Positions 3,419 to 19,990 of a stretch of 64,000 nt of DNA are shown piece by piece. The position numbers were made by a program, and so were the translations under genes. The DNA is taken from the IMG/VR virus record IMGVR_UViG_3300033388_007403; one strand, written 5' to 3'. The notes under the pieces were generated by a model. That model was not told where the DNA came from and did no database searches. It was given only the letters and a program-made list of their open reading frames with translations. The stretch comes from an uncultured virus (IMG/VR IMGVR_UViG_3300033388_007403). Its lineage: Duplodnaviria; Heunggongvirae; Uroviricota; Caudoviricetes. Within the stretch, counting starts at the first letter, position 1; each line of letters starts with the position of its first letter.

Positions 3419-3673
3419 TTAATCAAAATCTATTAAATCAAATCTAGTAACAAAGTCCCAATCTTTATAATCAGAAAATTCTAGATCTATTCCCTTTGTA
3501 GCGGCTCCTGTGTAGTCTGTATAGTTGTCCCAATCATCATCACAATGATAAACAACAAAAATCCATTTATCGTTCCAGGATTTAATGAGACCATATGTTC
3601 TCTTCCCTGCATGATCTTTGTAGAAAACGCCTCTGCCTTTATCTCTAGATTTAAGATTGTCTATTTTAACCAT
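3419..3673 (-). CDS. hypothetical protein ending in RFDLIDFD
   Basis: ORF track; shared C-terminal motif. Confidence 0.7.
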   Translation of the reverse strand: MVKIDNLKSRDKGRGVFYKDHAGKRTYGLIKSWNDKWIFVVYHCDDDWDNYTDYTGAATKGIDLEFSDYKDWDFVTRFDLIDFD

Positions 3674-3969
3674 TATTCATTTTTACTCATTTTCTCCACA
3701 ACAGCATTTCTTACAGTATTAAGAAAAGAGCTTGAACATCCACAATCAAACATAGGATAAAGATAATCTTGTTCATTTTCTTTTATTTTATCACGTATAG
3801 AGCAAATAAAAGTTCCTAATTCTTTGTCATCTTCTTCTAGGAATAAGCAATCTTTTTTCCCAGGAGAATATCTTCCATAAGAACATAATCCTTTTTTACA
3901 ACAATAACCACATTTTACACAAGTATCAATCATTTTTTTCAAACATATTAAATATGTCAGTCGCATCAT
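3673..3969 (-). CDS. CxxCxxCC (YkgJ-like) cysteine-cluster protein
   Basis: CVKCGYCC...CLFL...CSI pattern; true start may be downstream. Confidence 0.6.
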   Translation of the reverse strand: MMRLTYLICLKKMIDTCVKCGYCCKKGLCSYGRYSPGKKDCLFLEEDDKELGTFICSIRDKIKENEQDYLYPMFDCGCSSSFLNTVRNAVVEKMSKNE

Positions 3970-4192
3970 CTGCTTCTTTTACTTCTACTTTAAAATCACT
4001 ATCCATAGCAAACATAATATTCGAAGCCATTCTGAAATTCATATCTCCAGTACCTCTCATAAACTCTTTAAGATATTTTTGGCTAATCTTCATTTTTTTG
4101 CCAAAATTTTTATATCTATTCCCTTTTCATCCATTGTTCTGGCGATGAGTTCAGTAATATCTATAATCAATTTTTCTTGAAAATAGAGTTTT

Positions 4193-5056
4193 TTAAGCTT
4201 CTTTTTTTCGTGTCTTCTCATATTCAAAATCCGTATATAAACTTTCTCTCATTCTAGCCGCAACTGCTATTTTATCACATTTCTCATTTTCTGGATGATC
4301 ATTATGTCCTTTCACCCATTCAATAATAATACGATTTTTGCTCAATAAATGGTATAATTTTTTCCACAAATCCTGGTTCTTCACAGGTTTTTTTGAAGTT
4401 GTTTTCCAACCATTGTCTTTCCAATTATTTAACCAACCTTTATTAATAGCATCAGATACATATTTAGAATCAGTATAGATAAGAACATCGGCAGAACCGC
4501 CAATTCTCTCAAGTGGATGTATTACCCCTAACAACTCCATTCTGTTATTTGTTGTTAGTTTATATCCACCTTCATAGATTTTTTCTCTATCACTGAACTT
4601 CACAATTGCTCCAAATCCACCTTTGCCAGGATTACCAGAACAAGCTCCGTCAGAGTAAATGATTACTTTCTTTCTTTCAATAAGATTCTTCTGTATTCCC
4701 CAATTTATCCAGGCATCTGTTGATTCACCAAGATTGCCAGGAGTCTCTATTTTCTCTATTTTAGTTTTATTAGCAAATTCCGCTAAGAGACAGAATAACC
4801 AGGTTTTTTCAAATTGCATTCTTTTTAAGATATATGGAACTGCTCTTTCTCCTATTTTCTTCATAGAGATATAGCAAGGATGGTCAACACAAATCCAAGA
4901 AAAATTACTAGTTTCTTCTCTCCATCTGTTAGCTAATTTATTGAAATAATCTTCTTCATCGTGGCAGAGAACAGTTTTATCTCCACCACATCTTTCACAA
5001 GATTTCTGCTCATCTTCATTCTTGCCAACACATTGATAGCATTTGAATTCTTCCAT
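4193..5056 (-). CDS. rnhA: ribonuclease HI with N-terminal extension
   Basis: YSDGACSGNPGKGG, TTNNRMEL, TDSKY, KNQDLW, WVKGH..NEKCD. Confidence 0.93.
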   Translation of the reverse strand: MEEFKCYQCVGKNEDEQKSCERCGGDKTVLCHDEEDYFNKLANRWREETSNFSWICVDHPCYISMKKIGERAVPYILKRMQFEKTWLFCLLAEFANKTKIEKIETPGNLGESTDAWINWGIQKNLIERKKVIIYSDGACSGNPGKGGFGAIVKFSDREKIYEGGYKLTTNNRMELLGVIHPLERIGGSADVLIYTDSKYVSDAINKGWLNNWKDNGWKTTSKKPVKNQDLWKKLYHLLSKNRIIIEWVKGHNDHPENEKCDKIAVAARMRESLYTDFEYEKTRKKEA

Positions 5057-5523
5057 TAACAAGCCCTTCCTACAGCCCACAGTCCAAACTTAGACTCATC
5101 CCAAAAACCATGTGGCTCTAATGCTTCTTTTAACCTGTTTTTTATTTCAGAAAGATTTTCGGGAAGAGAAATCATTTCTGGAAAATTATTATCATAGCAG
5201 AGATCTCCATGAGCCACTTTTACTCCAATAGCAAATGTTTGAATTACCTTATAATGATCCCTATCAATCTCATCATATCCACGAATATGCATAAGCTCAA
5301 TTCCGAATAGCATTGCTTCTCCATCTGTATCAGATTCACCTTCATCATATCCTTCAATTGGATTTTCTTCTTTTCTCCAAGCTTTTCCGCCACAAGTTGG
5401 ACAGAATTTCATATCCTGGGTCACTTTTTTTTTGCTACAACCACAGGTTCTGACCAGTCTATCAGGAAGAATTTTTTCAGGGTCAATTTCAATACCAATA
5501 ATTGCATTTGCATAAAAACTCAT
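5056..5523 (-). CDS. hypothetical protein with zinc-ribbon insert
   Basis: FCPTCG; coupled stop/start. Confidence 0.6.
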   Translation of the reverse strand: MSFYANAIIGIEIDPEKILPDRLVRTCGCSKKKVTQDMKFCPTCGGKAWRKEENPIEGYDEGESDTDGEAMLFGIELMHIRGYDEIDRDHYKVIQTFAIGVKVAHGDLCYDNNFPEMISLPENLSEIKNRLKEALEPHGFWDESKFGLWAVGRAC

Positions 5524-5525
5524 AC

Positions 5526-6197
5526 TTATTTTACATCTCCAATAATTCGTTTAAGATTATCTTTTAACTTTACGTCTGTTTTTGCTTTTAATTCATTTAT
5601 CAATTCTATAATCTGTTCCTTTGAAGGCTCAGGAAGTTTGTGTCCTTTGCTGTCAGCACCGATATTAATCCAAGTTGGGTTAGCAACAATAATTAAATCT
5701 ACTAACTCTTCAAGATCAAAATCAAAGATAGGCTCAATAGTTACTATTGTCTCATATCCATTATCTCCCATAATAGAAAGATTAATAACCCTATCATAAT
5801 ATGAAGGAGCTTTAGAGATAACATAATCTTCTCTATTAGTTTCTATTGTTGTTCCAAAGACACAGATTGGAGGGTAGTCATTTATAAAATCTAAAAATCT
5901 TGCTGTATTTTTGCTCTGAAACAAATACTTATTTGTAGGGTATTTGTTGCAATGCTCTAACACTTTTCTAATCCATTCCGTTGGGATATCTTCTGCAAAC
6001 ATATCTATTGTATGTCCTACAAAGATAAAATTATTTTCACCAAGGTCATCTTTCAAATACTTTTCATCTAAATGAGCAACATCTAGTGGAAACTTTTTCA
6101 TATAACAATATGAGCAATCGTGCAAACACTTTCCTTTGATTGGACCCCACATATGGGTCACAAAATCATACATATTACCTTTTTGTTTCTTTAACAT
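5526..6197 (-). CDS. radical SAM-like protein (phage Gp37/Gp68, DUF5131-like)
   Basis: CLHDCSYCY (CxxxCxxC); FQSKN, TIEP, WINIG motifs. Confidence 0.8.
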   Translation of the reverse strand: MLKKQKGNMYDFVTHMWGPIKGKCLHDCSYCYMKKFPLDVAHLDEKYLKDDLGENNFIFVGHTIDMFAEDIPTEWIRKVLEHCNKYPTNKYLFQSKNTARFLDFINDYPPICVFGTTIETNREDYVISKAPSYYDRVINLSIMGDNGYETIVTIEPIFDFDLEELVDLIIVANPTWINIGADSKGHKLPEPSKEQIIELINELKAKTDVKLKDNLKRIIGDVK

Positions 6198-6523
6198 AGT
6201 TTACTCCAAATTCAATTCTTGCCATTCAGCTACATCATAGATAGATGAACCACCTGACGTTTTTCCTTTATTTGATGTCAATTTCCAATTAGCATTTTTA
6301 TTTATATCCCATTCTTCAGGGGCACAACCAAGAAATATAAGGGCACAACTTAATAATATAATCATTACAATTAATAGTATAATCATTATAACATTCTTCA
6401 TCTTACTTTCCTTTACTTTTTAAAAATTCTTCAATCCGTTTTCTTAGTTCAAGTATTTCTTCTACCAGCACACATGGTTCTACACCATCAAACTCATTAT
6501 CCATTGCTTCATCTATTTCTTCT

Positions 6524-7132
6524 TCACTTATCTCCATTTTTCACTCCATTTTTATACATTATTGATTGGCACAACATTTCCAATACATCTTCTGGCTTAG
6601 CATCTTTCATTTCAGTTCCACCTGGAAGATGTTTCCAATTTCTCACTATTGTCATAGGATCCATTGGAGGAGTATCTTTTTTCAATTTTCCATTCACACT
6701 TACAATCTCCCAAGGCAAATCTGTTGAAGCATCTCCATCTTCTTCTAAGACCTCATGACCGTAGAGAATAATATCAACATAATTACATTTTCTTTTGCCT
6801 TCACCAATCTTAATCCTAACTTTTGGAGGTTCATGTTCTCTTCCAGGAACCTTCTCATAATTTGCTTCTAATCTCATTCCATCGAACATAGGAAAATCTG
6901 TATAGGTATAAAATCCATAGCACATATGTTCAGGAACATGAAGGATCATAACGCCTTCTCTATACCCATTTTCCAACATTGGAAGAGACAACTGGTCTCC
7001 AAATCTTTTATTGTCAAACAACAATTCTGTTGCCAACAATCCGAGTTGATCCCAAGTTCCGTTGAAGTTAGTGAATTCGGAATCCCTTGTTTGCCGCTTT
7101 GCGAAGTCATTCACTCCTACTGTCCTTTTCAT
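6524..7132 (-). CDS. DUF3228-like protein
   Basis: DFAKRQ, GYREGV, VDIILY, PMDPMTIVRN..GG resemble DUF3228. Confidence 0.6.
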   Translation of the reverse strand: MKRTVGVNDFAKRQTRDSEFTNFNGTWDQLGLLATELLFDNKRFGDQLSLPMLENGYREGVMILHVPEHMCYGFYTYTDFPMFDGMRLEANYEKVPGREHEPPKVRIKIGEGKRKCNYVDIILYGHEVLEEDGDASTDLPWEIVSVNGKLKKDTPPMDPMTIVRNWKHLPGGTEMKDAKPEDVLEMLCQSIMYKNGVKNGDK

Positions 7133-7143
7133 TCTACATTCCT

Positions 7144-7389
7144 TTAATCAAAATCTATTAAATCAAACCTACTTGTTGGGTCATCATCTCTTTGATTTTT
7201 TTCTTTTGCCATTTTCCATTCTCTGTACTTTATTTCTTCATCCAACTGCCGATATATTGATAAATGAGTTTTATTACCTCTTTGCAACATATTTCTACTA
7301 TTCTTTAAATGATTATAATCCATCTCTCTAAGATATTTGTTTATACCTTTTTTTGTTCTCCATACAATATTTGGATCTGGTTGTTCCAC
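7144..7389 (-). CDS. hypothetical protein ending in RFDLIDFD
   Basis: ORF track. Confidence 0.65.
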   Translation of the reverse strand: MEQPDPNIVWRTKKGINKYLREMDYNHLKNSRNMLQRGNKTHLSIYRQLDEEIKYREWKMAKEKNQRDDDPTSRFDLIDFD

Positions 7390-7598
7390 TATTGGACATC
7401 CTTAAACGTCTTTCCTCTAGTAGGATGTCTCCTAACAGCTTCTCTTACTCTGTTTCTTACCAATGCTTCAATATCATCTAAAGCAGCAGCAGATACACAG
7501 GTACACTCCCATCCTGGTCTTAACAGTTCAGTCATATGAAGAATATATCTTTTCATTGCTGCTCTGTTCGTAATCATTTCTTTTTGTTTCACCATCAT
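7389..7598 (-). CDS. small basic protein, probable bacterial/phage-type histone fold
   Basis: alpha1 (AAMKRYI), VSxxALDDIEALVRNRVREAV long helix, R..GKT loop. Confidence 0.5.
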   Translation of the reverse strand: MMVKQKEMITNRAAMKRYILHMTELLRPGWECTCVSAAALDDIEALVRNRVREAVRRHPTRGKTFKDVQ

Positions 7599-7604
7599 TT
7601 TTCC

Positions 7605-8026
7605 TTAATCTAAATCTATTAAATCAAATCTATTTGTTTCTCTTGGATCTGGTCTCATAAAATCTAATTCTGAATTTGTTCCATCTTGACTCAATTTATT
7701 TAATTTATAAAAGTCTTTATCACTGAGACTCGTTATATATGCTTTTCATGTATTATACCATTTCCAATATACTTCAGTAGGTATTAAATTCTCATTTTGA
7801 GCACCTTTAACTCCTATCCTATCTAACTGCGTTACTGCATATTGCTGAGTTTCTCTCATCGCAAGAATATCTTCTTCTATTTTTAGTGTAGATTCAATCC
7901 TACCATCACCCAGATCATGTTCTATTCTCCAGATAAAACCACCAAGACTATCAATTGTAAAGTATAAAAGCTGCTCACAGCCCGTATCTAACTTTTCTTT
8001 TGTTTTTTTTCTACTCTTTCAAACAT
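7605..8026 (-). pseudogene. disrupted ORF ending in NRFDLIDLD
   Basis: C-terminal frame ends with the shared motif but has an upstream in-frame TGA (about 7746-7748). Confidence 0.4.
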
Positions 8027-8088
8027 TATTTTCCTCTAATAATTTCATAAGTATCTATTAATGAATAACTTATGATGTTAATATTAAT

Positions 8089-8117
8089 ATTATAGCAGAA
8101 ACGAAATGATTTGTCAA
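8089..8117 (-). promoter_or_regulatory. sigma70-type promoter
   Basis: TTGACA-N17-TATAAT perfect consensus. Confidence 0.8.
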
Positions 8118-8533
8118 GTGTTTTTTTCTATATTTTCGACAGAAGCAGTAACACCTTCTCCGTCTTTTGCTTCATAGTAATGAAATTTCATATGGCAATT
8201 AGCACAGAGAAGCTTACATTTCTTAATTTCTTTTTTTACAGCACCTAATCCATATTTATAAAGTTTATGGATACTTGCTCTCTTTTTAGAAGGATCTATA
8301 TGGTGAAAAATTAGACATGCTGGATCTGTTTCCATACAATTTGAGCATTTGTTATCTTTCTTAATTTTCCAGGCATATTCTCTTGCTTCTCGTACTTGTT
8401 TCTTTCTTCTTATTTTTCTTTTCATTTTTTCTTTTAAAAGTAATTTTTTTTCTTTCTCTCTTCTTGGTTTTTCAATTTCTTCATAATATTTTTTTCTTCT
8501 TGCTTTTGCTTTTTCTTTGTCTTTATATGGCAA
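8114..8533 (-). CDS. HNH endonuclease
   Basis: CSNC...FHHIDP...LCANCH. Confidence 0.85.
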   Translation of the reverse strand: MPYKDKEKAKARRKKYYEEIEKPRREKEKKLLLKEKMKRKIRRKKQVREAREYAWKIKKDNKCSNCMETDPACLIFHHIDPSKKRASIHKLYKYGLGAVKKEIKKCKLLCANCHMKFHYYEAKDGEGVTASVENIEKNT

Positions 8534-8813
8534 AATGTTCTCCTATTATAACAAAAATATAATATATTTGAGAAGTGGAAATGATTCTTATCTAAATCTT
8601 TTTTTCAACTTGCCTGTTTTGGTGTACATCCCAGTTAACATTAATATCTTCTTAGCGTACTCAGGATCTTTTTTGACTCTTTCTGTAGTTTCTTTTATCT
8701 TTTTCATTAACGCATTATATTCTTTATCATTCATATTTACATCTCCTAAAAAGTAATTAGAAAAGCTCACCATTACAGTGAGCTTTTCTTTTCTCCTGCT
8801 TCTGTAAAGAGGG

Positions 8814-9233
8814 TTAATCTAAATCAAGATGCATAAACTTATCTATGCCTTCTTCTCTAATTTTAATTTCTTTTTCTAATTCTTTATTCCTTTTTAATAA
8901 TTCATCGTTTGTTAAATTCAAACCATCGATAGTCTCTTGTGTGTGGATCTTATTTGTTTTTAATTGAGCGATTTCTGTGTGAATTTCTCTATACCTGTTA
9001 CCCATTTTTTTATTTTCGGTAATTAAATGATTTCTATAACATCTTTCATCACAGAATGTAGAGTAACCATGAACAACATAGTGTTCTACAGTGAGTCCCA
9101 TATCACAATGTTCACATCTTCTCATCCCCATATAAATGTCCTCTGAAAATCCTCTTCTTCTATCAGAACTACAACTGCTACCACTACAACTGCTACTGGT
9201 TTTAATATAATCCGTTATTTCCACAATTCCCAT
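8814..9233 (-). CDS. hypothetical zinc-finger/coiled-coil protein
   Basis: CEHC...FCDERC then heptads; ends DKFMHLDLD. Confidence 0.6.
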   Translation of the reverse strand: MGIVEITDYIKTSSSCSGSSCSSDRRRGFSEDIYMGMRRCEHCDMGLTVEHYVVHGYSTFCDERCYRNHLITENKKMGNRYREIHTEIAQLKTNKIHTQETIDGLNLTNDELLKRNKELEKEIKIREEGIDKFMHLDLD

Positions 9234-9243
9234 TTTTTTCCTC

Positions 9244-9510
9244 CTATTTATTCTTGTCTTTCAACAATTTTTTCAAATAATCTATCTCCCTTTGTCCCGC
9301 TTCTGAATCGAACTCTGCATATTTGCATCTTATATTTAAATCTTGTATTTTATCGGTTAAATCTACTATTGCATTATTTATTTCTGCTTTTTCTTCTTCT
9401 AATGATTGAATATATCTGATGTATTTTGCTCTATGTTCTTCTTGCTCTTCTTTTAACTTTTGAATGTGCTCAATTAACTCTGCTTTTTTTAATCTTTTTA
9501 AATTTTTCAT
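9244..9510 (-). CDS. coiled-coil hypothetical protein
   Basis: ORF track. Confidence 0.6.
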   Translation of the reverse strand: MKNLKRLKKAELIEHIQKLKEEQEEHRAKYIRYIQSLEEEKAEINNAIVDLTDKIQDLNIRCKYAEFDSEAGQREIDYLKKLLKDKNK

Positions 9511-10080
9511 TTATATTTCCATTAATTCAAAGCGTGATATTTCATTATCTTTATAATATTTTTTATATGTCTTAGTAAATTCTTTATATAAAGCATCGAT
9601 ACCTACGTTGTCTAAAGATAAACTAATTTTTATTTCTTTTTGTGTTGGGATTATTAATCTGCTTGTTGAGGTTTTTAGAAAAGATGGTATAGCAGAAATT
9701 CTTCCTTTGAAAACATATTCTTCATATTCTTCATCGCTTCCACAATTTTTCTTTTTTGTTCTTGATTTTATGCCGATATAACAGTCTTTAGTTTGATAGA
9801 TATCTCTAGTTTCTTCTTCAAAAAGAGAAAATAATTGTGTTTTATTGTAATAATCCATAAATACTGTATAAAATATTGTTGGATTTTTTGTTACATTCCT
9901 ATTGCCATTTGTATAGAAAACATTAGGAAGAAAATCTATATTAATATGATTATATCTCATTATGTGAACTTTTAGTTTATTTTTTGTATATACCCAAAAA
10001 TCTTCTGGTCTTGGCAATAACACTTCTACTAGATTCATATCTCTTATTTTCCTATTCTTTTCATTGCGTCTTCTAAACAA
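9511..10080 (-). CDS. hypothetical protein ending in SRFELMEI
   Basis: ORF track. Confidence 0.6.
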   Translation of the reverse strand: MFRRRNEKNRKIRDMNLVEVLLPRPEDFWVYTKNKLKVHIMRYNHINIDFLPNVFYTNGNRNVTKNPTIFYTVFMDYYNKTQLFSLFEEETRDIYQTKDCYIGIKSRTKKKNCGSDEEYEEYVFKGRISAIPSFLKTSTSRLIIPTQKEIKISLSLDNVGIDALYKEFTKTYKKYYKDNEISRFELMEI

Positions 10081-10325: not shown

Positions 10326-10760
10326 TCATAATTCCATTCCTTTAAATCTATTAACAATATTATCAAACCTCCAATCTTGGTGAGAATTATTGTAAAGTCT
10401 TAAAAGATATTCATTACTCATATCTTGAAATAGTTTCCAATCATAATCGCTTACATACTTTTTATCTCCAACAACTTTACTTCCACCCCAGATGAATAAA
10501 GTAATTTCTCTTATTTTATCATTTCTGCTTCTATGATCCCAATCACGAAGCAATAAAATTTTAGAAGGGCTTGTGCCTCTAATAGCATTGGCATTAAAAG
10601 CATATTTATAAATATATTCTTCATCATTTTTACGAGAATAAATTTCAGTATCAATTCCAAAAGCTTCTGGAAAAAGATTGATTTTTTTAATCCACCAATC
10701 AAATGTTCTCTTATCAGCAGCAAATATTAAAACTAATTTATAATCTTTACTCATCTTCAT
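10326..10760 (-). CDS. hypothetical protein ending in NRFKGMEL
   Basis: ORF track. Confidence 0.6.
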   Translation of the reverse strand: MKMSKDYKLVLIFAADKRTFDWWIKKINLFPEAFGIDTEIYSRKNDEEYIYKYAFNANAIRGTSPSKILLLRDWDHRSRNDKIREITLFIWGGSKVVGDKKYVSDYDWKLFQDMSNEYLLRLYNNSHQDWRFDNIVNRFKGMEL

Positions 10761-11013
10761 TTATATCCATTAACTTAAATCTATTTATAGGGGTTATTTT
10801 TGAATATTTTTTTACATTCATTATTTTATTTTTCATTTCGTCAAAAGATTCTTTAACATAAAAAGAATATGAACCACCGTTTCCACTTCCTTTCATTCGT
10901 ATTTGAATTTTTCCTCCATAAGAGTCATCTTCAGTAAAATACATAATTTCATAAACATTAATCATATATTTTCTAGGAGGATCTGGTCTTAAATTTTCTA
11001 TTTCTATAAACAT
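10747..11013 (-). CDS. hypothetical protein ending in NRFKLMDINEDE
   Basis: ORF track. Confidence 0.65.
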   Translation of the reverse strand: MFIEIENLRPDPPRKYMINVYEIMYFTEDDSYGGKIQIRMKGSGNGGSYSFYVKESFDEMKNKIMNVKKYSKITPINRFKLMDINEDE

Positions 11014-11435
11014 TATAACTCCATCATCCTAAATCTTTTATTACTGTTTTTAGTTCTTAAATAATAATTGTGTTTATATCCCATTGCTTCATTACTTGTA
11101 ACATCTAACACAACTTTCCTACTAATTTTTAAATCAGTATTTGTGTTAAAAAGCCACATCACTCTTCCTTTATATGTCTCTCCAAAAATAGTGCGAATAT
11201 CACATTTAATGCTACGACCCGTAATGCTCCCATTTATACAAATAGGAGCGAAGATATTGTTCGCAGGCCTTATTGATTCATTTAAAAATAAAAAATGTTT
11301 TTCATTTATGATATCATAATAATAAGTATGATAATCTAATGGAGCGCTAATAGCAATAGGTAGAGTAATGATAGATATTACTTTCCTATTTTTTGGGCGA
11401 ATAGAAATATATTTTATTAAATCTAAAGTGTACAT
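11013..11435 (-). CDS. hypothetical protein ending in KRFRMMEL
   Basis: ORF track; coupled stop/start. Confidence 0.6.
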   Translation of the reverse strand: MYTLDLIKYISIRPKNRKVISIITLPIAISAPLDYHTYYYDIINEKHFLFLNESIRPANNIFAPICINGSITGRSIKCDIRTIFGETYKGRVMWLFNTNTDLKISRKVVLDVTSNEAMGYKHNYYLRTKNSNKRFRMMEL

Positions 11436-11614
11436 TATTCTTCCATATCCATTACATCAAATCTCGTCATTTCTCTACGATATACAAAGTGATCTACTCC
11501 TTTATAATAAGGACAACATATAAAATGCATACTATCCCAAGGTCTGTCAACTTTTTCATATCCACCGCATTCTTCACAAGTTATTTTGGGATATATAATC
11601 TCTAGAATCCCATA
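11435..11614 (-). pseudogene. small Cys-containing frame ending in TRFDVMDMEE; expected start ATG is out of frame
   Basis: Hand translation ...CEECGG...CCPYY...TRFDVMDMEE*. Confidence 0.45.
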
Positions 11615-11617
11615 TCA

Positions 11618-11875
11618 TCATTCTTCCATCTCCATGAGTTCAAATCTATTTATTGTTTTTTCAAATTTTAGAGATTTTCTTTTCAATCTCTCTAAATCTT
11701 CTTTCTTGAATTTTACACCCATACTGTAATATACAATGTTAAGCCAATCATATTCTGTTGTGACAATAAATACAAGTCTAGCGAGATTGTCAGTATAAAT
11801 TATTTGCGATTGAAGTATCATACCTTCTCTCCTACCATTCTCATATGTTATAGTTAAACCTTCAAATACACTCAT
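11618..11875 (-). CDS. hypothetical protein ending in NRFELMEMEE
   Basis: ORF track. Confidence 0.65.
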   Translation of the reverse strand: MSVFEGLTITYENGRREGMILQSQIIYTDNLARLVFIVTTEYDWLNIVYYSMGVKFKKEDLERLKRKSLKFEKTINRFELMEMEE

Positions 11876-12423
11876 TCTTCTATCTCCATAAGTTCAAATC
11901 TTGATACTTTTTTTCTTTCCAAAAATTCTATATTATCAATTTTTTCTTGTGTTGTTATTTCTCTGTATATCAAATAACCTACATCTAATTTGTCTCTGTG
12001 TTTATAAATAAATTTGTCAGATATTATTTTATTACAGACACTTACAGAAAACCAATCAACTTTTTTTTATGTTTTTCTAAAGTCTCTTCTGGCAAATTTT
12101 CAAAACTAGAAAGTCTATACCAATTAGCAAAATGATATTTATATTTCTTTTTTGACATCTTAATGCTTTCTTTTTGAAAAACTTTTCTAATTTCTCTTTT
12201 TACACTTTTGTTCATATTTCCATCAATTTAAATCTTGATACTTCACACTCAATCTCTATTATTAATTCTCTTTTCCTGTTCTTAGTAACATATTTGTTCA
12301 ATTCAAGACAAAGTAGAAAATCGACAGTTAGAATGGTGGCTTCTACATCGTGCCCATAAAACTTCACTTCTCGCTTTTTTCGATAATATCATAACTGTAT
12401 TATAACAGATTTCTCTTTCACTT

Positions 12424-12651
12424 TCAAGAAAAATCCATTAAATTAAAGCGATTTTCCATATTATCAAATAAATATGCTGTTTCTGAGACAAATTCTCCGT
12501 CATCAACTATATAAAATCTTCTTGCTTTTATCTCATCTAGGGATACAGTAGGATTTGAAGATATTTCAAAAGTAGGAGCATATGCCAATTCTTCTACAAA
12601 TAAAGATTGTGGATTATAATTATTAATTGCATCTTGAATCGCTGTTCCCAA
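12424..12651 (-). CDS. hypothetical protein ending in NRFNLMDFS (5' end uncertain)
   Basis: ORF track. Confidence 0.5.
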   Translation of the reverse strand: MGTAIQDAINNYNPQSLFVEELAYAPTFEISSNPTVSLDEIKARRFYIVDDGEFVSETAYLFDNMENRFNLMDFS

Positions 12652-12872
12652 ATATTCCGTTAATTTTTACTCTTGTGTCATTTCATATTGCTCCATTAAT
12701 GAAGAAACATGTACGCCTTCTGTCCATATCTGACCATAAAGACCAGTACTTAAAATTTCAGATGCTGTGATCCCTTGCGTTGGGAAAAGATCAACATTTA
12801 TTAAATTTGTTGGAACTATTGACATTTTAAAACTCCATCCTAATTATAACATCTTCTCTTTCACTTATCGAC

Positions 12873-13038: not shown

Positions 13039-13064
13039 AGTATAGTAATTTTAAGGAGATTAAT

Positions 13065-13292: not shown

Positions 13293-13297
13293 ATTAA

Positions 13298-14416: not shown

Positions 14417-14432
14417 AGATCACCTTCATTTG

Positions 14433-15023: not shown

Positions 15024-15038
15024 ACACCGTCCTTTCTA

Positions 15039-15596
15039 TTAATCAGATTCATAAAAATAAATCATTGTTCTTATTTTATCACCAGCCGTAGCTACTTCTC
15101 CTAGAACTAAAATACTACTATTTTTAGGAAGCATTACAGCACCATGAAAATCAAAGTGAAAACTACTATTATTTAATCTAACATCATAAAATTCTTTAGC
15201 ATCGACAACTGTTGCTGTTAAATCTGTTTCTCCATGGAGACAAGTTGTTTCTGATTCAAGGACAGATCCTCTGTTCATATTCAAAGGAACAATCGATGTT
15301 CCTCCTGAAACCCCTACTGGGGCGAAATAAACTTCTATTTTGGCAGCACTAGAGTTGCTTGAAAACATCATATCTTTAATGAATAAAGTATTATCACCAA
15401 TATATTTTAAATATAGTATATTTTCATTTGTACTCCCCGCCGTAAAATTTCTTTTACCATAAACAGAAAATGCTTTTTTGTTATCTCTTGAAATATAAAA
15501 TATTCTATTTTCTGTTTTCGAAGAAATATTTAATCTGTTTATAGAATTAACACCAGCTTTTTTCCCCGTTCCTTTACCATCTTCTATCACACTCAT
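15039..15596 (-). CDS. probable virion-associated hypothetical protein
   Basis: ORF track; IEDGxGTG N-terminal motif. Confidence 0.65.
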   Translation of the reverse strand: MSVIEDGKGTGKKAGVNSINRLNISSKTENRIFYISRDNKKAFSVYGKRNFTAGSTNENILYLKYIGDNTLFIKDMMFSSNSSAAKIEVYFAPVGVSGGTSIVPLNMNRGSVLESETTCLHGETDLTATVVDAKEFYDVRLNNSSFHFDFHGAVMLPKNSSILVLGEVATAGDKIRTMIYFYESD

Positions 15597-15606
15597 AGTT
15601 TATTCC

Positions 15607-15897
15607 TTATAATTTATCTCTATATGCATGAGCATCTTTTGTTGTTAATTTAGTTGCTGTTATCATTTCTAGTTGCTCATTAAACTTTTTTAATTCTTTT
15701 AATATTTTTTGGAAAAGCATCATCTCTTCAATAGAATAAGTCATTAATTCTTTATTCTTTTCTTTTGCTACCCCTAATGGTTTAGCATTTGATTCTGTAT
15801 CTTTCCCAAATCCTAATATATCTTTATTTGCCATTTTTTTAAAAAATCCTTTAATTATCTTATATAGGAAGGTTAATTTCTCTATTCCTAATCTCAT
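15607..15897 (-). CDS. hypothetical protein, similar to C-terminus of 15860-16501 (start likely MANKD)
   Basis: Shared G(K)D...A...IL.EL.K.N.Q...MT pattern. Confidence 0.55.
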   Translation of the reverse strand: MRLGIEKLTFLYKIIKGFFKKMANKDILGFGKDTESNAKPLGVAKEKNKELMTYSIEEMMLFQKILKELKKFNEQLEMITATKLTTKDAHAYRDKL

Positions 15898-16501
15898 TCC
15901 CAGTCATAATAGCCATTTGTATATTTGCTTTTATCAATTCTATTAAAATATCTTCTAATACTGTTGTTATATCAAGATCCATAGTTAAAACTTCATTATT
16001 TTCTTCTCCTGAAATTCCTATTGCTGCTGCTTCATTACCTAGATCTTTGCCATATAATATTGCTCCTGTAGTCTCATCTGTTATCTTATCTCCTTCAGTT
16101 ATTTGATCTAATAATGCTTCTCTTATCCCTTGTTCTGTTACAACATGGTTATCACTTCCTGGATCTTCTACTCCTGTTAAAAGCCCTATTTCTTTCAAAT
16201 CTCCCATCTCATTTTCTTCCATAGGAGTAATAGCATCATCTATATCTGCAACGGAAATTGGTCCAGGAAATTCATTAGTAAATAATTTATCTTTACTTAA
16301 AGACACTCTTCCTGATTTGACTAATTGAGGAAGAATAGTGGAATGACTTATTTTTTCTCTGGTGTAATGATATAGTAAATCAACTTTTTTTCCAGGTTTT
16401 AAAGCAGGGAGCAATAACAAATCTCCTATTGTTATTGTGTTATTGGTGTTATTTGTTACCCACCAAGATTCTCTCTTATTTTCTCCCTTTCGAATGTCCA
16501 C
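15860..16501 (-). CDS. hypothetical protein
   Basis: ORF track, 213 aa. Confidence 0.7.
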   Translation of the reverse strand: MDIRKGENKRESWWVTNNTNNTITIGDLLLLPALKPGKKVDLLYHYTREKISHSTILPQLVKSGRVSLSKDKLFTNEFPGPISVADIDDAITPMEENEMGDLKEIGLLTGVEDPGSDNHVVTEQGIREALLDQITEGDKITDETTGAILYGKDLGNEAAAIGISGEENNEVLTMDLDITTVLEDILIELIKANIQMAIMTGNEIRNREINLPI

Positions 16502-16513
16502 ACTTCATTTTCC

Positions 16514-17110
16514 TTAAACTACTGATTTATTGCTATTCCAAGTAATGTTGCCATTGCCAGTATTGTTAATATTAATTGTTGGAGGGTTAAGAGGATGATC
16601 ATATTGATGAGGCATTCTATTGCCGTAGATAGAGCTTCTCCAATCAGTGACACCATCTAAGTATTTTGCTGCTTCTAATGATCTACTTGGAGTAACATTT
16701 TTTCTATCTATGTCTAAGTATCTTAGAGCTTCTCTTGCCATTCCTTGTAGTGTTGGTCCTGGCATATCATCGTCTTCATATTCCGTCTTCAGATCTTCTA
16801 CTAAATTAACGCACCTATTAAATGTCTTAACTGCTCTTCTAGATTCATTTTTTGGGTATTTCCAGGCTTCTGAAAATAATGGAAATGAATGAACTTCATT
16901 CATGAATACAGCAGTTAGAACTATTCTTTTTTTTGATTCTGTTAGTTGAACCTTACAGGTATAGGCATCTTTATCCATTGTGTCATTGAATTCTGTAGCA
17001 TGACCCTTAGTCATATATGCTAATTTCTTCATCTTTCTTTTATGAGAAAGTTTTAAAGATGATGACTTTAATAGTTTTTCATTCAAATATTTTTCTTTAT
17101 ACCAATTCAT
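16514..17110 (-). CDS. hypothetical protein with MNWYK N-terminus
   Basis: ORF track; ATG 5 nt after the promoter -10 box (probably leaderless). Confidence 0.75.
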   Translation of the reverse strand: MNWYKEKYLNEKLLKSSSLKLSHKRKMKKLAYMTKGHATEFNDTMDKDAYTCKVQLTESKKRIVLTAVFMNEVHSFPLFSEAWKYPKNESRRAVKTFNRCVNLVEDLKTEYEDDDMPGPTLQGMAREALRYLDIDRKNVTPSRSLEAAKYLDGVTDWRSSIYGNRMPHQYDHPLNPPTININNTGNGNITWNSNKSVV

Positions 17111-17115
17111 ATTTA

Positions 17116-17147
17116 ATATATTACATTAAAAATATTGAAAACCCTTT
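17116..17147 (-). promoter_or_regulatory. phage promoter class AAAGG-N17-GAATATA
   Basis: AAAGGG-17 nt-GTAATATAT. Confidence 0.55.
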
Positions 17148-17171
17148 TTCAATGATATTATTTTTTGGCAT

Positions 17172-17385
17172 AAAAAAACCCAAGCATTCGAAAATGACTT
17201 GGGACTCATAGCTTTAATTAGGTTTACGACACCTATAAACGTTTTCTAGTTTTTACTTTAATATTCATTCTAATATTCGCTTAACCTACTTAATCGATAT
17301 TTTCAGCCAAACCTTCATTTAAAACATTCTCTCTTAATATTAAATCACTTTAATTCTACATTAAAAAGCTACGAGGATGTACTAT
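17172..17385 (-). ncRNA. candidate structured RNA of about 200 nt
   Basis: Own TTGACA-N17-TATAGT promoter (17391-17419), closing stem CTCGTAGCTTT/AAAGCTATGAG, terminator 17172-17203. Confidence 0.5.
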
Positions 17386-17408
17386 ACTATACTATACGCT
17401 ATTTTTAC

Positions 17409-17720
17409 TCATTTGTCAAGTACTTTTTTCATTTTATTTAAATTATAACCTTCTTTAACGCTGTGTTCTTCATTTACATCTATTTCGCAATACAATTCCC
17501 CATTCATATATAAATGCGTTTTGAGTATTTTTAATTTAAATGCTTTAGCAAATTCTATTGCTCTATATCCTGTTCTTTCCATATATAAATGTTTATCTTC
17601 TTGATGAGGAATGAGACCATCTGTTGACTCAATGAAATCTTCATTTTCGTATAGAAAAAAGAATTTTCCATCTTCTTCTTTAAAAAAATAGTGATTATTA
17701 CCCATTGTTATATTCCACAA
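17409..17720 (-). CDS. hypothetical protein
   Basis: ORF track. Confidence 0.55.
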   Translation of the reverse strand: MWNITMGNNHYFFKEEDGKFFFLYENEDFIESTDGLIPHQEDKHLYMERTGYRAIEFAKAFKLKILKTHLYMNGELYCEIDVNEEHSVKEGYNLNKMKKVLDK

Positions 17721-17825
17721 TTTGTGTTATTTGTTGAGTATTTATAATTGTTAAATCACCAATATTTATAAAATTACAACCGTTATTTAGCCAGGTTCGT
17801 AATTCTATAATACTATACAAACATC

Positions 17826-18146
17826 TCAATCATTCCCCAACATTTTAAATCCTTTTTCTAATCTTGTCCCATAATTTGCTTTTCTATCAGGTCTATTTTG
17901 ATTTCCTTTATGTATACCATTACTTATTTTCTCACCATTTGTTGGGTTATTCAATTTCTTTCTTTCTCTCTTCATTCTTTCTTCATTTACTTCTATATCA
18001 AATAACCATAAATATCCTTTTTTACATTTGGAACAAGGAATTTTTATACCATCACAAGCTCCAGCACTATATTCAACATTTTTTTCTCTGGGGAATAAAT
18101 CCTGGCAAACATTACATCTTACTAATTTTTCACTATATTTCATCAA
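17826..18146 (-). CDS. zinc-ribbon hypothetical protein
   Basis: CNVC...CSKC. Confidence 0.6.
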   Translation of the reverse strand: MMKYSEKLVRCNVCQDLFPREKNVEYSAGACDGIKIPCSKCKKGYLWLFDIEVNEERMKRERKKLNNPTNGEKISNGIHKGNQNRPDRKANYGTRLEKGFKMLGND

Positions 18147-18447
18147 TTAAAATCCATTAATTCTGCTCTTGATACTTCTCTCATAAGAGGAGGTGGGACA
18201 GAGAAACTTCTTCTTATCTTTTTTTTATTATCTGGATGAACTCTAAAATTATCAATAAAATGCGCCCATCTACCTTTTTTAAAAAAACTTTCATCTTCTT
18301 CTATATAAAAATATAAGTATATATACTCCTTACAATATTGCCATGAACATAATCTTCCAAGAAGATCAATTCAATTATCACCTTCAGATTCTTGTCTTAC
18401 TTGAAATCTGCATCCTATAAAAATTGGTGATAAATAAAATATATCCA

Positions 18448-18981
18448 TTAATCAAAGTCCATTAAATAAAATCTATTTTCTATTGAATTAGAAGTTACTA
18501 CCTCATATCCAAGATGCTCCCCCGTTAATCCAACACAATATTCTGCTATGAATACATTTTTAATACCTTCCTTTAGAAGAAGATTCTTTATAACAGTAGC
18601 CTTTCTTTTGGGAAATTTTAGTGAATAATCACGATAAGATTGAATATGAAATGGAGGCTTATGCTTATTCTTCTCATTTTCGTCCATCTCAGAGGCAAGA
18701 AATGAACGTTTTATTACATAATGTGGAATTGCGTTATTCATAGTATAAATAGAGTATCTCTCTATCAAATTACTTTTTTTAAATTTTGTTACATTTCCAT
18801 CTCCTTCAGAAATATTCACAACTACTATCCAGTTATTTTTCACTGCATATTCGTACTTCGCAATAACTTTTTTAGCCTTTATAGGATCTGATATTGATAT
18901 ATTCTTCTCATAAGCAATGCCATATTGTACTGAAAATTTAGACTGTGGGCTAATTCTTTCGCCTATGTATTTAATTCCCAT
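18448..18981 (-). CDS. hypothetical protein ending in NRFYLMDFD
   Basis: ORF track. Confidence 0.7.
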   Translation of the reverse strand: MGIKYIGERISPQSKFSVQYGIAYEKNISISDPIKAKKVIAKYEYAVKNNWIVVVNISEGDGNVTKFKKSNLIERYSIYTMNNAIPHYVIKRSFLASEMDENEKNKHKPPFHIQSYRDYSLKFPKRKATVIKNLLLKEGIKNVFIAEYCVGLTGEHLGYEVVTSNSIENRFYLMDFD

Positions 18982-18991
18982 TTTTTACCTC

Positions 18992-19387
18992 TTATTCAAA
19001 ATCCATTAATTCAAATCTACTTGTTTCTAATTCATCTTCTATGCTATATGGTTTCCATTCTGCTTTAATTACTTTTGCACCGTCAGAATGCATATGCTTT
19101 ACAATCTGTATGTGATCTTTCTCTGCTTCATCCCAGGTAGAGTATCTTGCTAATACTTCATCGCCGTATGAACCTCCAAATACCATTGTCTCAAATAGAA
19201 TAGGCTCTGCATCTTGTGTGGAACCATGATCTATTACCAAAAAAACTGTAGACAATTTTCGTCCATCAGAAAAGTGAGTTTGTCTCACAACTCTTGCTTT
19301 TGGGTCTGTAAACATCGGTCCTAATTCTGACATACTATCAATTGGAACAGGTGTCTTGCCATCTAATTTATAAAATTCATTACTCAT
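18992..19387 (-). CDS. conserved phage protein ending in SRFELMDFE
   Basis: STVFL.IDH..PILFETMVFG..RYSTW.EA motif common in phage hypotheticals. Confidence 0.7.
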   Translation of the reverse strand: MSNEFYKLDGKTPVPIDSMSELGPMFTDPKARVVRQTHFSDGRKLSTVFLVIDHGSTQDAEPILFETMVFGGSYGDEVLARYSTWDEAEKDHIQIVKHMHSDGAKVIKAEWKPYSIEDELETSRFELMDFE

Positions 19388-19593
19388 AATTCCATCAACT
19401 CAAATCTAGTTACTTCTGGTTCCTCTATATGATAGTCTCTCCAATAGGCACGGATTTCTTTCATTACATAATATTCATCTATTATTTTTTCTATTGTTAC
19501 AACTCTGTTAATTTTTTTTAAAATTTTTGTTATATCTCTAGCTACTTCTATATCTTCTCTTATTCTCACTCTCTCTCCAACTTTATAATTCAT
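19384..19593 (-). CDS. small SH3/KOW-like protein ending in TRFELMEL
   Basis: YKVGERVRIR start; paralog adjacent. Confidence 0.65.
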   Translation of the reverse strand: MNYKVGERVRIREDIEVARDITKILKKINRVVTIEKIIDEYYVMKEIRAYWRDYHIEEPEVTRFELMEL

Positions 19594-19832
19594 AATTTCA
19601 TCAACTCAAATCTAGTTATTTCTTTCGCTTCTGACCCTAATCTTTCTATTTCATTGTCCTTTCAGTTCCAGCCAATTTCTTTCATATAGTAATAAGAAAT
19701 GCTTTTGGTAACATACACTTTTTTAATTGTTGCAGTTTCGTTCTGTAATCTATCTATAGCTTGTAGAATGTCTCTACACCAGTTAAGATTTCTTTTAATT
19801 TTTACTTTATCGCCAACTTTATATTTGCTCAT
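19590..19832 (-). pseudogene. paralog of 19384-19593 with an internal TGA; ends TRFELMKL
   Basis: MSKYKVGDKVKIK...YYYMKEIGWN*KDNEIE...; the TGA aligns with Trp in the paralog. Confidence 0.65.
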
Positions 19833-19990
19833 AATTCCATCAACTCAAATTTAATTACTTCTTTGCCTCACAGTGTGGGCATCTTGATATCCTTTCCATA
19901 AGTTCTTGTGTCATCTTATGCATTTTCATATAATATGGTACTCCATCAGCTACTATTTTTATTTTTATATCTTCTCTGCTCATGTTGGGC

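What the first reader, a model, noticed from the sequence alone, without database searches (positions are those of the whole stretch)
3419..19852. At least 17 reading frames end in a common C-terminal motif [STN]-R-F-x-L-M/I-D/E-[FLIM]
Seen, by stop position: RFDLIDFD (3419, 7144), RFDLIDLD (7605), KFMHLDLD (8814), RFELMEI (9511), RFKGMEL (10326), RFKLMDI (10747), RFRMMEL (11013), RFDVMDMEE (11435), RFELMEMEE (11618), RFELMEIEE (11872), RFKLMEI (12212), RFNLMDFS (12424), RAELMDFN (18143), RFYLMDFD (18448), RFELMDFE (18992), RFELMEL (19384), RFELMKL (19590) and a frameshifted KFELMEL (19829). An internal RFSLLDIE occurs in ORF 53025-53309. The upstream bodies are mostly unrelated. Established: short acidic-hydrophobic C-terminal tails dock proteins on hubs (T4 gp33/gp55/gp43 LDFL clamp motif, SSB tail) or act as degrons. 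Inference: these form an adaptor family with variable substrate domains and one docking peptide for a shared partner such as a protease, clamp or RNAP.
Basis: partly seen in the sequence, partly recalled or inferred. Interest (0 to 1): 0.82.

Follow-up and report, generated by a model that had tools for sequence, protein, structure and literature searches.

The report
Shared C-terminal tag in megaphage proteins
Dozens of unrelated small proteins of a group of half-megabase bacteriophages end in the same eight-residue peptide, which behaves like a common address tag that plugs them into one still unidentified partner, probably at the phage's DNA-replication machinery.

Summary
All 19 listed tails sit at the stated stops. 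15 of 16 strict motif matches in six frames lie 0-4 residues from a stop, against 0.07 expected from shuffling. Selection acts on the amino acids: Arg, Leu and Ser each use both codon families. The distance to the next start varies from 20 to over 117 nt.

The window is collinear with a complete 548 kb phage genome, G004. G004 has 51 such tails, G002 31, G003 20 and G001 17; the complete relative G007 has none. 79 tail proteins fall into 62 unrelated body clusters. The tail is an appended module: a flexible linker followed by a one-turn helix. It also occurs near N-termini, and its flavour changes in concert between genomes.

Its oldest carrier is a ~265-aa HExxH zincin-type protein encoded 6-8 kb from Pol III alpha. 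70 of 85 homologs end in the tail or a variant of it.

Best reading: a shared docking peptide for one partner, probably at the replisome. The partner remains unidentified.

The parts
3419..3673 (-). 84-aa orphan protein ending TRFDLIDFD
7144..7389 (-). 81-aa orphan protein ending SRFDLIDFD
7605..7745 (-). Tail segment ending NRFDLIDLD (29-aa ORF 7605-7694). It follows an in-frame TGA (7746-7748) that closes a 90-codon open frame upstream.
8814..9233 (-). 139-aa protein with the loose variant DKFMHLDLD
9511..10080 (-). 189-aa protein ending SRFELMEI; its ortholog in G004 (391254) ends SRFELLDL
10326..10760 (-). 144-aa protein with the variant NRFKGMEL
10747..11013 (-). 88-aa protein; tail NRFKLMDI followed by four more residues (NEDE)
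11013..11435 (-). 140-aa protein ending KRFRMMEL
11435..11530 (-). 31-aa mini-ORF ending TRFDVMDMEE
11618..11875 (-). 85-aa protein ending NRFELMEMEE
11872..12066 (-). Tail frame ending SRFELMEIEE (33-aa TTG ORF 11872-11973). It is open in the -1 frame of ORF 12042-12215.
12042..12215 (-). 57-aa body ORF. It holds the in-phase heptamer A AAA AAG (about 12060-12066) five codons before its stop, from which the -1 frame runs into the tail at 11872.
   Evidence: junction printed; phasing read from the sequence
12212..12367 (-). 51-aa protein ending SRFKLMEI
12424..12651 (-). 75-aa protein ending NRFNLMDFS; its ortholog in G004 (407052) ends LRFEILDL
18143..18373 (-). 76-codon open frame ending SRAELMDFN; it has no ATG/GTG/TTG start apart from a Met 13 residues from the end, so it is probably decaying
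18448..18981 (-). 177-aa protein ending NRFYLMDFD; three orthologs (80/55/50% id) keep the tail
18992..19387 (-). 131-aa protein: a widespread ~100-aa domain, a ~20-aa acidic linker, and the tail SRFELMDFE
19384..19593 (-). 69-aa protein ending TRFELMEL; belongs to a family of 7 with G004 members
19590..19832 (-). ORF 19662-19832 (56 aa), then an in-frame TGA, then 23 codons ending TRFELMKL. The TGA aligns with a Trp of the paralog 19384-19593.
19829..20040 (-). ORF 19855-20040 (61 aa) with the tail IKFELMEL in its -1 frame (junction GCA AAG AAG TAA)
53025..53309 (-). 94-aa protein with the motif NRFSLLDIE near its N-terminus (about residue 20)

Best explanation
The tail is a tethered short linear motif. 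It consists of an N-cap residue (S/T/N/D), then R-F-[acidic or polar]-hydrophobic-hydrophobic-[D/E]-hydrophobic, often followed by 0-2 acidic residues, and hangs on a flexible, mostly acidic linker. It serves as a common docking peptide (address tag) for one partner protein.

Its original carrier is a conserved ~265-aa HExxH zincin-type metalloprotease-like protein encoded 6-8 kb from Pol III alpha. In one sub-clade of ~0.5 Mb phages, to which the window belongs, the tail was copied onto at least 60 unrelated small accessory proteins, about 6% of the ORFs of the complete genome.

I think the partner is most likely a replisome hub. The best guess is the sliding clamp used by the phage's Pol III alpha, so that the tail would bring the protease and the small proteins to replicating phage DNA.

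Shown: the motif, its amino-acid-level constraint, its modular attachment, its occurrence at either terminus, its genome-specific flavour, its clade distribution and its ancient carrier. Inferred: that it docks to a single partner (my odds about 0.8); that this partner is at the replisome (about 0.45); and that it is the clamp (about 0.3).
For: (1) Position-specific enrichment with clean controls.

(2) Amino-acid-level selection. Arg is encoded by AGA/AGG/CGT/CGA/CGC, Leu by TTA/TTG/CTN, Ser by AGT/TCA, and all three stops follow the tail. Orthologs at 45-80% identity keep the tail.

(3) Modular attachment. Of the 120 best members of a 1763-member family, only the 10 closest carry linker plus tail. 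AlphaFold models of two carriers show confident bodies, low-confidence linkers (pLDDT 55-62) and a one-turn helix exactly at R-F-x.

(4) The motif also sits near N-termini in three proteins, or is followed by 5-12 more residues, so no free C-terminus is needed.

(5) Concerted flavour. The window and G001 have ..L-M-[DE]-x, while G002, G003 and G004 have P-I-x-S-R-F-E-I-L-D-L. Five window/G004 ortholog pairs switch flavour with their genome. This is expected if all tails in a genome track one partner.

(6) The system is all-or-none. G007 is complete and shares 156 of the 239 G004 proteins that recur in at least two tail-positive genomes, yet it has 0 tails.

(7) Replisome link. 49 of 85 homologs of the zincin-type protein end in the strict tail and 21 in a variant, down to 33% identity. 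H130, E131, H134, E151 and E152 are invariant. The fold matches are nearly all zincins, Z 5-7. The gene lies 6-8 kb from Pol III alpha in all 5 genomes, and a second tail gene and two small tail genes lie beside or between the split Pol III alpha pieces.

(8) Pol III alpha itself ends in [ST]-[VI]-D-[IML]-F-[GA] in 4 of the 5 genomes; G001 ends G-A-D-I-F-G. That is the same polar-hydrophobic-acidic-hydrophobic-hydrophobic pattern as tail positions 0-4 and as the bacterial clamp-binding consensus QL(S/D)LF, described as C-terminal and variable (PMC9690074, passages read).
Against: No clamp of any known family (beta, gp45, PCNA) is detectable in G004, G001, G002, G003 or G007, so a phage clamp is unproven and the host is unknown.

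None of the 79 tails has the Gln that defines clamp-binding and PIP motifs. The polymerase's own tail lacks the Arg-Phe and is equally conserved in tail-negative G007.

Most tail genes lie in accessory arrays far from the replication module (window 3.4-19.9 kb; G004 136-148 kb). About 50 competing clients on one clamp would be unprecedented.

No binding test for the clamp could be run. The bodies give no functional clue: 0 of 48 G004 bodies and 0 of 30 window/G001 bodies match a family of known function.
Confidence: 0.55

Rival explanations
1. The partner is the tail-bearing zincin-type protease itself. The tail is its recognition or pseudo-substrate peptide, and the small tail-bearing proteins are its clients: substrates to be cleaved or removed on schedule, or competitors that regulate it.
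For: The protease-like protein is the oldest and most constant carrier: 70 of 85 homologs carry the tail or a variant. It is present in every genome examined, including G007, where it ends in a tail-like variant. A partner that is phage-encoded fits the genome-specific flavour. Some small zincins are blocked by their own C-terminal tail (recalled knowledge; one such zymogen, 4jiu, is among the weak fold matches, Z 5.1).
Against: The AlphaFold model leaves the tail undocked and at low confidence (pLDDT about 60). G007 has the protease but no clients. Catalytic activity is not shown.
Confidence: 0.15
2. The tail is a degron, or an adaptor tether to an AAA+ unfoldase or protease. It either marks early proteins for timed removal, or tethers small adaptors (body = target binder) to the machine, as in the SspB-ClpX arrangement (recalled).
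For: The architecture body - flexible linker - short terminal peptide is that of tethering adaptors. G004 encodes a soluble FtsH-like AAA + M41 protease, a ClpC-type N-domain-only protein and two classical AAA ATPases. The ClpC-type protein is in G002, G003 and G004 and absent from G007. The motif works at either terminus.
Against: The FtsH-like gene is absent from what is held of G002 (73% complete) and G003 (62%), and present in tail-negative G007 and G010. The Clp_N protein is also present in tail-negative G013 and G010. Known degrons are not usually this sharply conserved across 60 families.
Confidence: 0.12
3. The tail is a cargo signal that loads many small effector proteins into the virion for co-injection, analogous to capsid-targeting sequences or encapsulin cargo-loading peptides (recalled).
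For: Many unrelated small proteins sharing one short terminal signal is the hallmark of translocation or cargo systems. A second, N-terminal tag (MNWYK) marks another set that includes two GNAT enzymes. Some tail genes lie inside the structural region of G004 (508-522 kb).
Against: The oldest carrier is a replication-module protein. Most tail genes sit among non-structural accessory genes. No capsid protein or scaffold was identified or tested.
Confidence: 0.1
4. The conservation is at the DNA level: a ribosome-binding site or promoter of the next gene, or a recombination site for shuffling gene cassettes.
For: 11 of the 34 tails examined in the window and G001 overlap the next gene's start by 1-14 nt, mostly as ATGA. 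The tail codons are AT-rich like the genome.
Against: The distance from motif to next start ranges from 20 to 117 nt in 31 cases, with no start within 120 nt in 3 more, while the distance to the tail's own stop is 0-4 codons. Synonymous codon families alternate at Arg, Leu and Ser. Protein-only orthologs keep the motif. It also occurs at N-termini.
Confidence: 0.02
5. The tails are the last recognisable remnant of one diverged paralog family.
For: A few small families exist: 7 members in one cluster and 3 in another.
Against: 79 proteins fall into 62 clusters, with lengths from 28 to 268 aa. In one family the tail is present only in the closest 10 of the 120 listed homologs, so it was added to an existing domain.
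Confidence: 0.02

Closest known systems
Bacterial beta-clamp-binding motif, consensus QL(S/D)LF (PMC9690074, passages read)
   Same: A short peptide, usually at a terminus, shared by many otherwise unrelated client proteins of one hub. Tail positions 0-4 follow the same pattern: polar, hydrophobic, acidic or small, hydrophobic, hydrophobic. The phage polymerase carries a tail of this type.
   Different: Arg replaces the defining Gln in every tail. Two further conserved positions ([DE]-hydrophobic) follow. The clients are about 60 orphan proteins rather than replication or repair enzymes. No clamp gene was found.
T4-type gp45-binding tails, LDFLF on the polymerase C-terminus, gp33 and the ligase loop (PMC6212786, passages read)
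   Same: A phage system in which a hydrophobic-acidic peptide, helical when bound, docks several proteins on one hub, at the extreme C-terminus or internally.
   Different: The sequence is different. T4 has a handful of clients with known functions. The gp45 family is not detectable here.
SPRTN/Spartan: HEXXH SprT protease with a PCNA-binding PIP box (PMC9240642, passages read)
   Same: A zinc metalloprotease-type protein carrying a short clamp-type docking peptide C-terminal to the catalytic domain, linked to replication. The SprT domain is among the fold matches (6mdx_A: Z 6.0, rmsd 3.6, 102 aligned).
   Different: No Pfam SprT-like match was found. Z is middling and no better than for other zincins. 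The PIP pattern Qxx[I/L]xxFF is not met. The organisms are eukaryotes versus phage.
Tethering peptides of protease adaptors (SspB C-terminal ClpX-binding peptide; recalled, no call)
   Same: The architecture: a substrate-binding body, a flexible linker and a short terminal docking peptide.
   Different: A single adaptor with a basic peptide, against about 60 proteins with an acidic one here.
Cargo and targeting peptides (T4 capsid-targeting sequence, encapsulin cargo-loading peptides; recalled, no call)
   Same: Many unrelated proteins share one short terminal signal, sometimes at either terminus.
   Different: There is no evidence here that tail proteins are in virions, and the oldest carrier is a replication-module protein.

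Membership tests
beta-clamp-binding motif (CBM) | Pentapeptide of the form Q-L-(S/D)-L-F | tested here: not met
   0 of 79 tails have Gln at position 0: 76 Arg and 3 Lys over the three genomes. The hydrophobic/acidic pattern of positions 1-4 is compatible.
beta-clamp-binding motif (CBM) | Located at a terminus or in a flexible region of the client | tested here: met
   The motif lies 0-4 residues from the C-terminus in most cases and near the N-terminus in three; the linker has low pLDDT.
beta-clamp-binding motif (CBM) | A beta clamp is present and binds the peptide in its hydrophobic cleft | not testable with these tools
   PF00712 and PF02768 give no match in G001 (PF02768 only), G002, G004 or G007.
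T4-type gp45-binding tail | LDFLF-type motif and a gp45-family clamp | tested here: not met
   The motif differs. PF02916 gives no match in G001-G004.
PIP box | Qxx[I/L]xxFF and a PCNA-family clamp | tested here: not met
   There is no Gln and no aromatic pair. PF00705 gives no match in G001-G004.
C-terminal peptide ligands needing a free carboxylate (PDZ-type, C-degron) | Fixed distance to the free C-terminus | tested here: not met
   The motif is followed by 0-4 residues in most cases and by 5-12 in three G004 proteins. It lies near the N-terminus in two G001 proteins and one window protein.
Zincin metalloprotease (for the ~265-aa ancient carrier) | HExxH plus a downstream Glu, invariant | tested here: met
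   H130, E131, H134, E151 and E152 are invariant in 77 aligned sequences. HExxH is present in the orthologs of all 5 genomes.
Zincin metalloprotease (for the ~265-aa ancient carrier) | Zincin fold | tested here: inconclusive
   Model pLDDT is 91.1. Foldseek's best E is 0.64. In VIA-align the top ~45 rows are nearly all zincins, but at Z 5-7.0, which the tool calls middling.
SprT/Spartan family (for the ancient carrier) | SprT-like domain by profile or fold | tested here: inconclusive
   No Pfam family at E<=1e-4 and no PHROG. 6mdx_A scores Z 6.0, no better than other zincins.

The most novel reading that the evidence does not exclude
A clade of ~0.5 Mb phages runs a proteome-wide address-tag system. 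At least 6% of its genes carry a C-terminal RF tail, taken over from the docking tail of a replisome-associated metalloprotease, and a second set carries an N-terminal MNWYK tag. All tails of a genome co-evolve with one phage-specific hub. In some genes the tail is attached only through a programmed -1 frameshift (in-phase A AAA AAG and T TTT TTG heptamers) or through stop-codon read-through, giving tagged and untagged isoforms. That would be a viral counterpart of PIP-box networks or of substrate-adaptor arrays, with regulated tagging.
Probability: 0.3. Interest if true: 0.88.

Novelty: new variant of a known kind. Interest (0 to 1): 0.8.

Why it matters
Huge phages are full of small orphan genes with no handle on their function. 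A single peptide shared by about 50 of them per genome gives such a handle: find what binds the tail, and one learns where and with what a large slice of the dark proteome acts.

It also shows how a virus can wire new genes into an existing hub simply by appending eight residues, and that the tag and its partner can drift together between lineages.

If the partner is the clamp, this would be the largest clamp-client network known in any virus. If it is a protease or the capsid, it would be a new targeting system. In either case the peptide would be a ready-made tool for bait, localisation tagging or inhibition.

Tried and rejected
- **Close relatives:** none in the phage records by blastn or by tblastn with P0006, which gave only distant tail-less homologs. 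No relatives of 18451-18981 in viral contigs, nor of P0006 in genome contigs.
- **DNA patterns:** a pattern including the stop found only chance hits outside G001.
- **Clamp families:** not found.
- **Unannotated replication-module proteins as hidden clamps:**
  - G001 352 aa: no PDB sequence match, a poor Atlas model, viral hypotheticals only.
  - G001 336 aa: a Cas4-like exonuclease by PHROGs.
  - G004 272 aa: reads like a DnaC-type loader (by eye).
- **Host inference:** the PRPP synthetase of G001 matches Planctomycetota MAGs best, at about 50%. This is too weak, and the GC content does not fit.
- **Complex prediction:** the actin-like protein (alignment A3) with the neighbouring 72-aa tail protein (A4) gave no verdict, score 0.00, and is not evidence either way.
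- **Phylogenetic profiling:** profiles of the Clp_N, FtsH-like and actin-like proteins, and a subtraction against G007 that left 83 proteins, singled out no partner.
- **Fold of the 131-aa body:** no match; best Foldseek E is 0.094.
- **Profile of the protease family against PDB sequences:** nothing significant.
- **Family libraries on the bodies:** Pfam, PHROGs and NCBIfam gave nothing functional.
- **Orthologs of the frameshifted bodies:** none found in the other genomes, so conservation of the junctions could not be tested.
- **Sequencing runs:** none was listed for window 11400-12700, and no RNA holder was listed.
- **Literature:**
  - The strings RFEILD, RFELMD, RFDLID, FEILDL, RFDILD and RFELME matched only typos.
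  - Searches on shared or conserved C-terminal motifs in phage, on clamp-binding motifs in phage, and on SprT with the beta clamp in bacteria showed no description of this system in the listings I read.
  - Subscription journals and supplements were not seen.

Full report
**The observation**

The window is AT-rich (GC about 0.30) and almost all of its genes are on the - strand. It carries 24 tRNA genes and accessory genes such as an RNase H fusion, a PARP-like protein, radical SAM enzymes, HNH endonucleases and GNATs.

The strict pattern [RK]F.[LMVI][MI][DE][FLIM] occurs 16 times in the six-frame translation. 15 of these are on the - strand at 3.4-19.9 kb and 0-4 residues from a stop.

The controls are clean:
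- The reversed motif gives 0 hits in open frames of 40 codons or more.
- Shuffling the residues within the 668 open frames gives 0.07 C-terminal hits on average (max 2 of 300) against 14 observed.
- Among chance matches to a tail-encoding DNA pattern in 117 other viral loci, only 3 lie near a stop behind an open frame.
- An unbiased count of terminal 4-mers puts tail words at the top of the C-terminal list in all three proteomes examined.

**Protein-level or DNA-level conservation**

- In the window, Arg is AGA (14), AGG (1) or CGC (2). Leu is TTA (9), TTG (4), CTC (1) or CTT (1). The preceding Ser is AGT (2) or TCA (4).
- In the relatives, every codon family of Arg and Leu and all three stops are seen.
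- Five window/G004 ortholog pairs keep the tail with different codons.
- The motif is tied to its own stop (0-4 codons). Its distance to the next start ranges from 20 to 117 nt in 31 cases, and there is no start within 120 nt in 3 more.
- Orthologs known only as proteins keep it. All 4 members of the 18451-18981 family do so at 50-80% identity, with x = Y, R, S or E.

**The tail is an appended module on unrelated bodies**

Only 4 of 561 body pairs in the window plus G001 are similar. Over the window, G001 and G004, 79 strict tail proteins fall into 62 clusters, with lengths of 28-268 aa.

The 131-aa protein 18992-19387 belongs to a family with 1763 hits. Of the 120 best, only the 10 closest (45-100% identity, 128-137 aa) carry a variable acidic linker of about 20 aa plus the tail. 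The other 110 are mostly about 100 aa and lack the tail; those aligned stop right after the domain.

Its AlphaFold model (pLDDT 87) has a confident body (residues 1-111), a low-confidence stretch (112-131, pLDDT 55-59) and a one-turn helix at R124-L127, right after S123. Position -1 is S, T, N or D, and position +2 is mostly E or D. That is the classic N-cap/capping-box arrangement of a helix start (my inference).

None of the bodies matches a family of known function. The body of 18992-19387 has no structural match.

**The tail does not need a free C-terminus**

- Two paralogous Zn-ribbon proteins of G001 carry the motif 9-13 residues from the N-terminus.
- The window's ORF 53025-53309 carries it about 20 residues from its start.
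- Three G004 proteins continue for 5-12 residues after it.

This argues against PDZ-type or carboxylate-dependent recognition, and against any mechanism tied to translation termination.

**A clade-wide system**

A scan of IMG/VR for a tail-encoding pattern picked out one 219 kb contig, G001. Relatives of its AAA ATPase led to further records.

The window is collinear with 100-181 kb of G004, a 547,943-bp record that CheckV rates 100% complete. For example, the PARP-like proteins share 56% identity, the last gene of the window 74%, and the tail arrays sit at the equivalent place.

| Sequence | C-terminal tails |
|---|---|
| G004 | 51 of 64 motif hits |
| G002 | 31 |
| G003 | 20 |
| G001 | 17 strict |
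| G007 (461 kb, complete) | 0 |

More distant complete relatives give 0 pattern matches, and every reversed-pattern control was 0.

With one fixed codon choice, all 23 matches in IMG/VR fall in G002, G003, G004 and three further fragments. G004 holds a tandem array of about 28 tail genes at 136-148 kb. About 6% of its 792 greedy ORFs carry the tail.

**Concerted flavour**

The window and G001 use R-F-x-L-M-[DE]-[FILM], followed by 0-2 acidic residues. G002, G003 and G004 use (P)-I-x-[SND]-R-F-[ED]-I-L-D-[LI] and then stop. Orthologs switch flavour with their genome.

With the codon diversity seen, gene conversion is an unlikely cause. Co-evolution of all tails with one genome-specific partner is the simplest reading (inference).

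**The oldest carrier**

Only 4 of the 79 tail proteins have any homolog in G007. One is a protein of about 265 aa whose G007 ortholog ends in a tail-like variant without the Arg.

This family has 85 homologs, down to 33% identity. 49 end in the strict tail and 21 in a recognisable variant. H130, E131, H134, E151 and E152 are invariant in 77 aligned sequences, giving an HExxH...EE signature.

The model is confident (pLDDT 91.1) and again shows a body (1-248), a low-confidence linker, and a short helix at the R-F-D. Foldseek finds nothing significant (best E 0.64). The independent aligner lists almost only zincin metallopeptidases, at Z 5-7.0, among them the SPRTN SprT domain (Z 6.0), IrrE/PprI and ArdC. 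The tool itself calls such Z values middling. I therefore call it a zincin-type metalloprotease-like protein and do not assign it to SprT.

Its gene lies 6-8 kb from the Pol III alpha finger piece in all five genomes. In G001 and G004 a second tail-bearing gene follows it, and small tail genes lie in the gaps of the split Pol III alpha gene.

**What the partner might be**

These phages encode Pol III alpha, DnaX, DnaB, primase, SSB, RecA and topoisomerase I. No clamp of the beta, gp45 or PCNA families is detectable.

Pol III alpha ends in [ST]-[VI]-D-[IML]-F-[GA] in four of the five genomes (G001 ends G-A-D-I-F-G), tail-positive or not. That is a clamp-binding-type tail, and it has the same polar-hydrophobic-acidic-hydrophobic-hydrophobic pattern as tail positions 0-4. 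The bacterial consensus is QL(S/D)LF, C-terminal and variable (PMC9690074, passages). T4 uses LDFLF (PMC6212786, passages). The HEXXH protease SPRTN is brought to PCNA by a PIP box (PMC9240642, passages).

On this basis I rank a replisome hub, most likely the clamp, first. Against it:
- No tail has the defining Gln.
- The polymerase tail differs from the RF tail.
- Most tail genes lie far from the replication genes.

Other candidates in G004 are a soluble FtsH-like protease, a ClpC-type N-domain-only protein, two AAA ATPases, Ro60-vWA, PspA and an actin-like protein. Profiling and subtraction did not single one out.

The rival that the protease itself is the receptor of the tail deserves a direct test.

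**Possible regulated tagging**

This point is unresolved. In the window, four of the 19 tails are joined to a body only through a recoding-type junction:
- The tail at 11872 is in the -1 frame of ORF 12042-12215. That ORF holds an in-phase A AAA AAG five codons before its stop.
- The tail at 19829 is in the -1 frame of ORF 19855-20040.
- The tails at 7605 and 19590 each follow an in-frame TGA. The second TGA aligns with a Trp of a paralog.

G001 has one junction at an in-phase T TTT TTG, and G007 has a relic tail behind an in-frame TAG.

Homopolymer errors, or recent mutations, would look the same. No orthologs of these bodies and no reads were available to decide.

**Verdict**

The finding is real, strong, and not in print as far as my searches reach (listings and passages only). 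It is a new, very large instance of a known principle, a shared docking peptide, in an unexpected place. Its origin is traceable, but its partner is not yet known.

Noticed in passing
window 16514-17110 and the contiguous array 20614-25900 (11 proteins); G004 (12 proteins); G007 (10 proteins): A second position-specific tag. An N-terminal M-N-W-Y-K-[KQ] sits on unrelated proteins, including two GNAT acetyltransferases (window 21120-21440 and 21437-21880). All 11 occurrences of NWYK in the window's proteins are N-terminal. The tag is independent of the RF tail: it is present in tail-negative G007 and absent from G001-G003. No protein carries both tags.
   Followed up: partly
window 12042-12215 / 11872-12066; 19829-20040; 7605-8015; 19590-19832; G001 L128:12438-12868: Bodies and tails are joined only through the -1 frame (in-phase heptamers A AAA AAG and T TTT TTG) or through an in-frame TGA. 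This could be programmed recoding that makes tagged and untagged isoforms, or decay, or homopolymer errors.
   Followed up: partly
G001 L123:6666-11149; G004 405016-410391: Pol III alpha is split into two or three ORFs. In G001 the third piece starts with an intein-C-like stretch, and small tail-bearing genes lie in the gap. Inteins or LAGLIDADG domains also interrupt DnaX, an RNA ligase, a sugar dehydratase and a papain-like protease.
   Followed up: no
G001 and G004 replication proteins: A separate class of acidic-aromatic C-termini, in the style of SSB tails, occurs on DnaB, an SSB/gp32-like protein, the primase Zn-ribbon protein and Pol III alpha piece 1.
   Followed up: no
G004 506-510 kb; L306-L311: A conserved module runs [56-aa Zn-ribbon] - [~190-aa protein] - [actin-like protein, Pfam Volactin 4e-59], inside the structural region. 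The ~190-aa protein ends in [SD]-E-L-E-[DNG]-L-[LF] in all 7 genomes. Only tail-positive G004 and G002 have extra small genes, including an RF-tail protein, inserted before the actin-like gene.
   Followed up: partly
G004 124.9-134.7 kb (L278:4939-14708): Twelve tandem paralogs of about 254-293 aa with no Pfam family lie directly upstream of the large tail-gene array. They have no counterpart in the window or in G001.
   Followed up: no
window 12424-12651 and 12667-12825: Two adjacent small ORFs (one of them tail-bearing) both match different parts of one 290-aa G004 protein (10648-11520), as if a longer gene had been broken or rebuilt here.
   Followed up: no
window 56893-63215: A cluster of 24 tRNA genes is interleaved with HNH endonuclease genes. 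G004's collinear region ends at about 181 kb.
   Followed up: no
G001 L122:5516-6109; G004 L291:3951-4778: There are matches to anti-defence families: Tad5 (Thoeris inhibitor, 7e-29) in G001, and a weak Apyc1-like metallo-beta-lactamase-fold protein in G004. Both phages also encode PARP-like, macro-domain, NADAR and ADP-ribosylglycohydrolase proteins.
   Followed up: no
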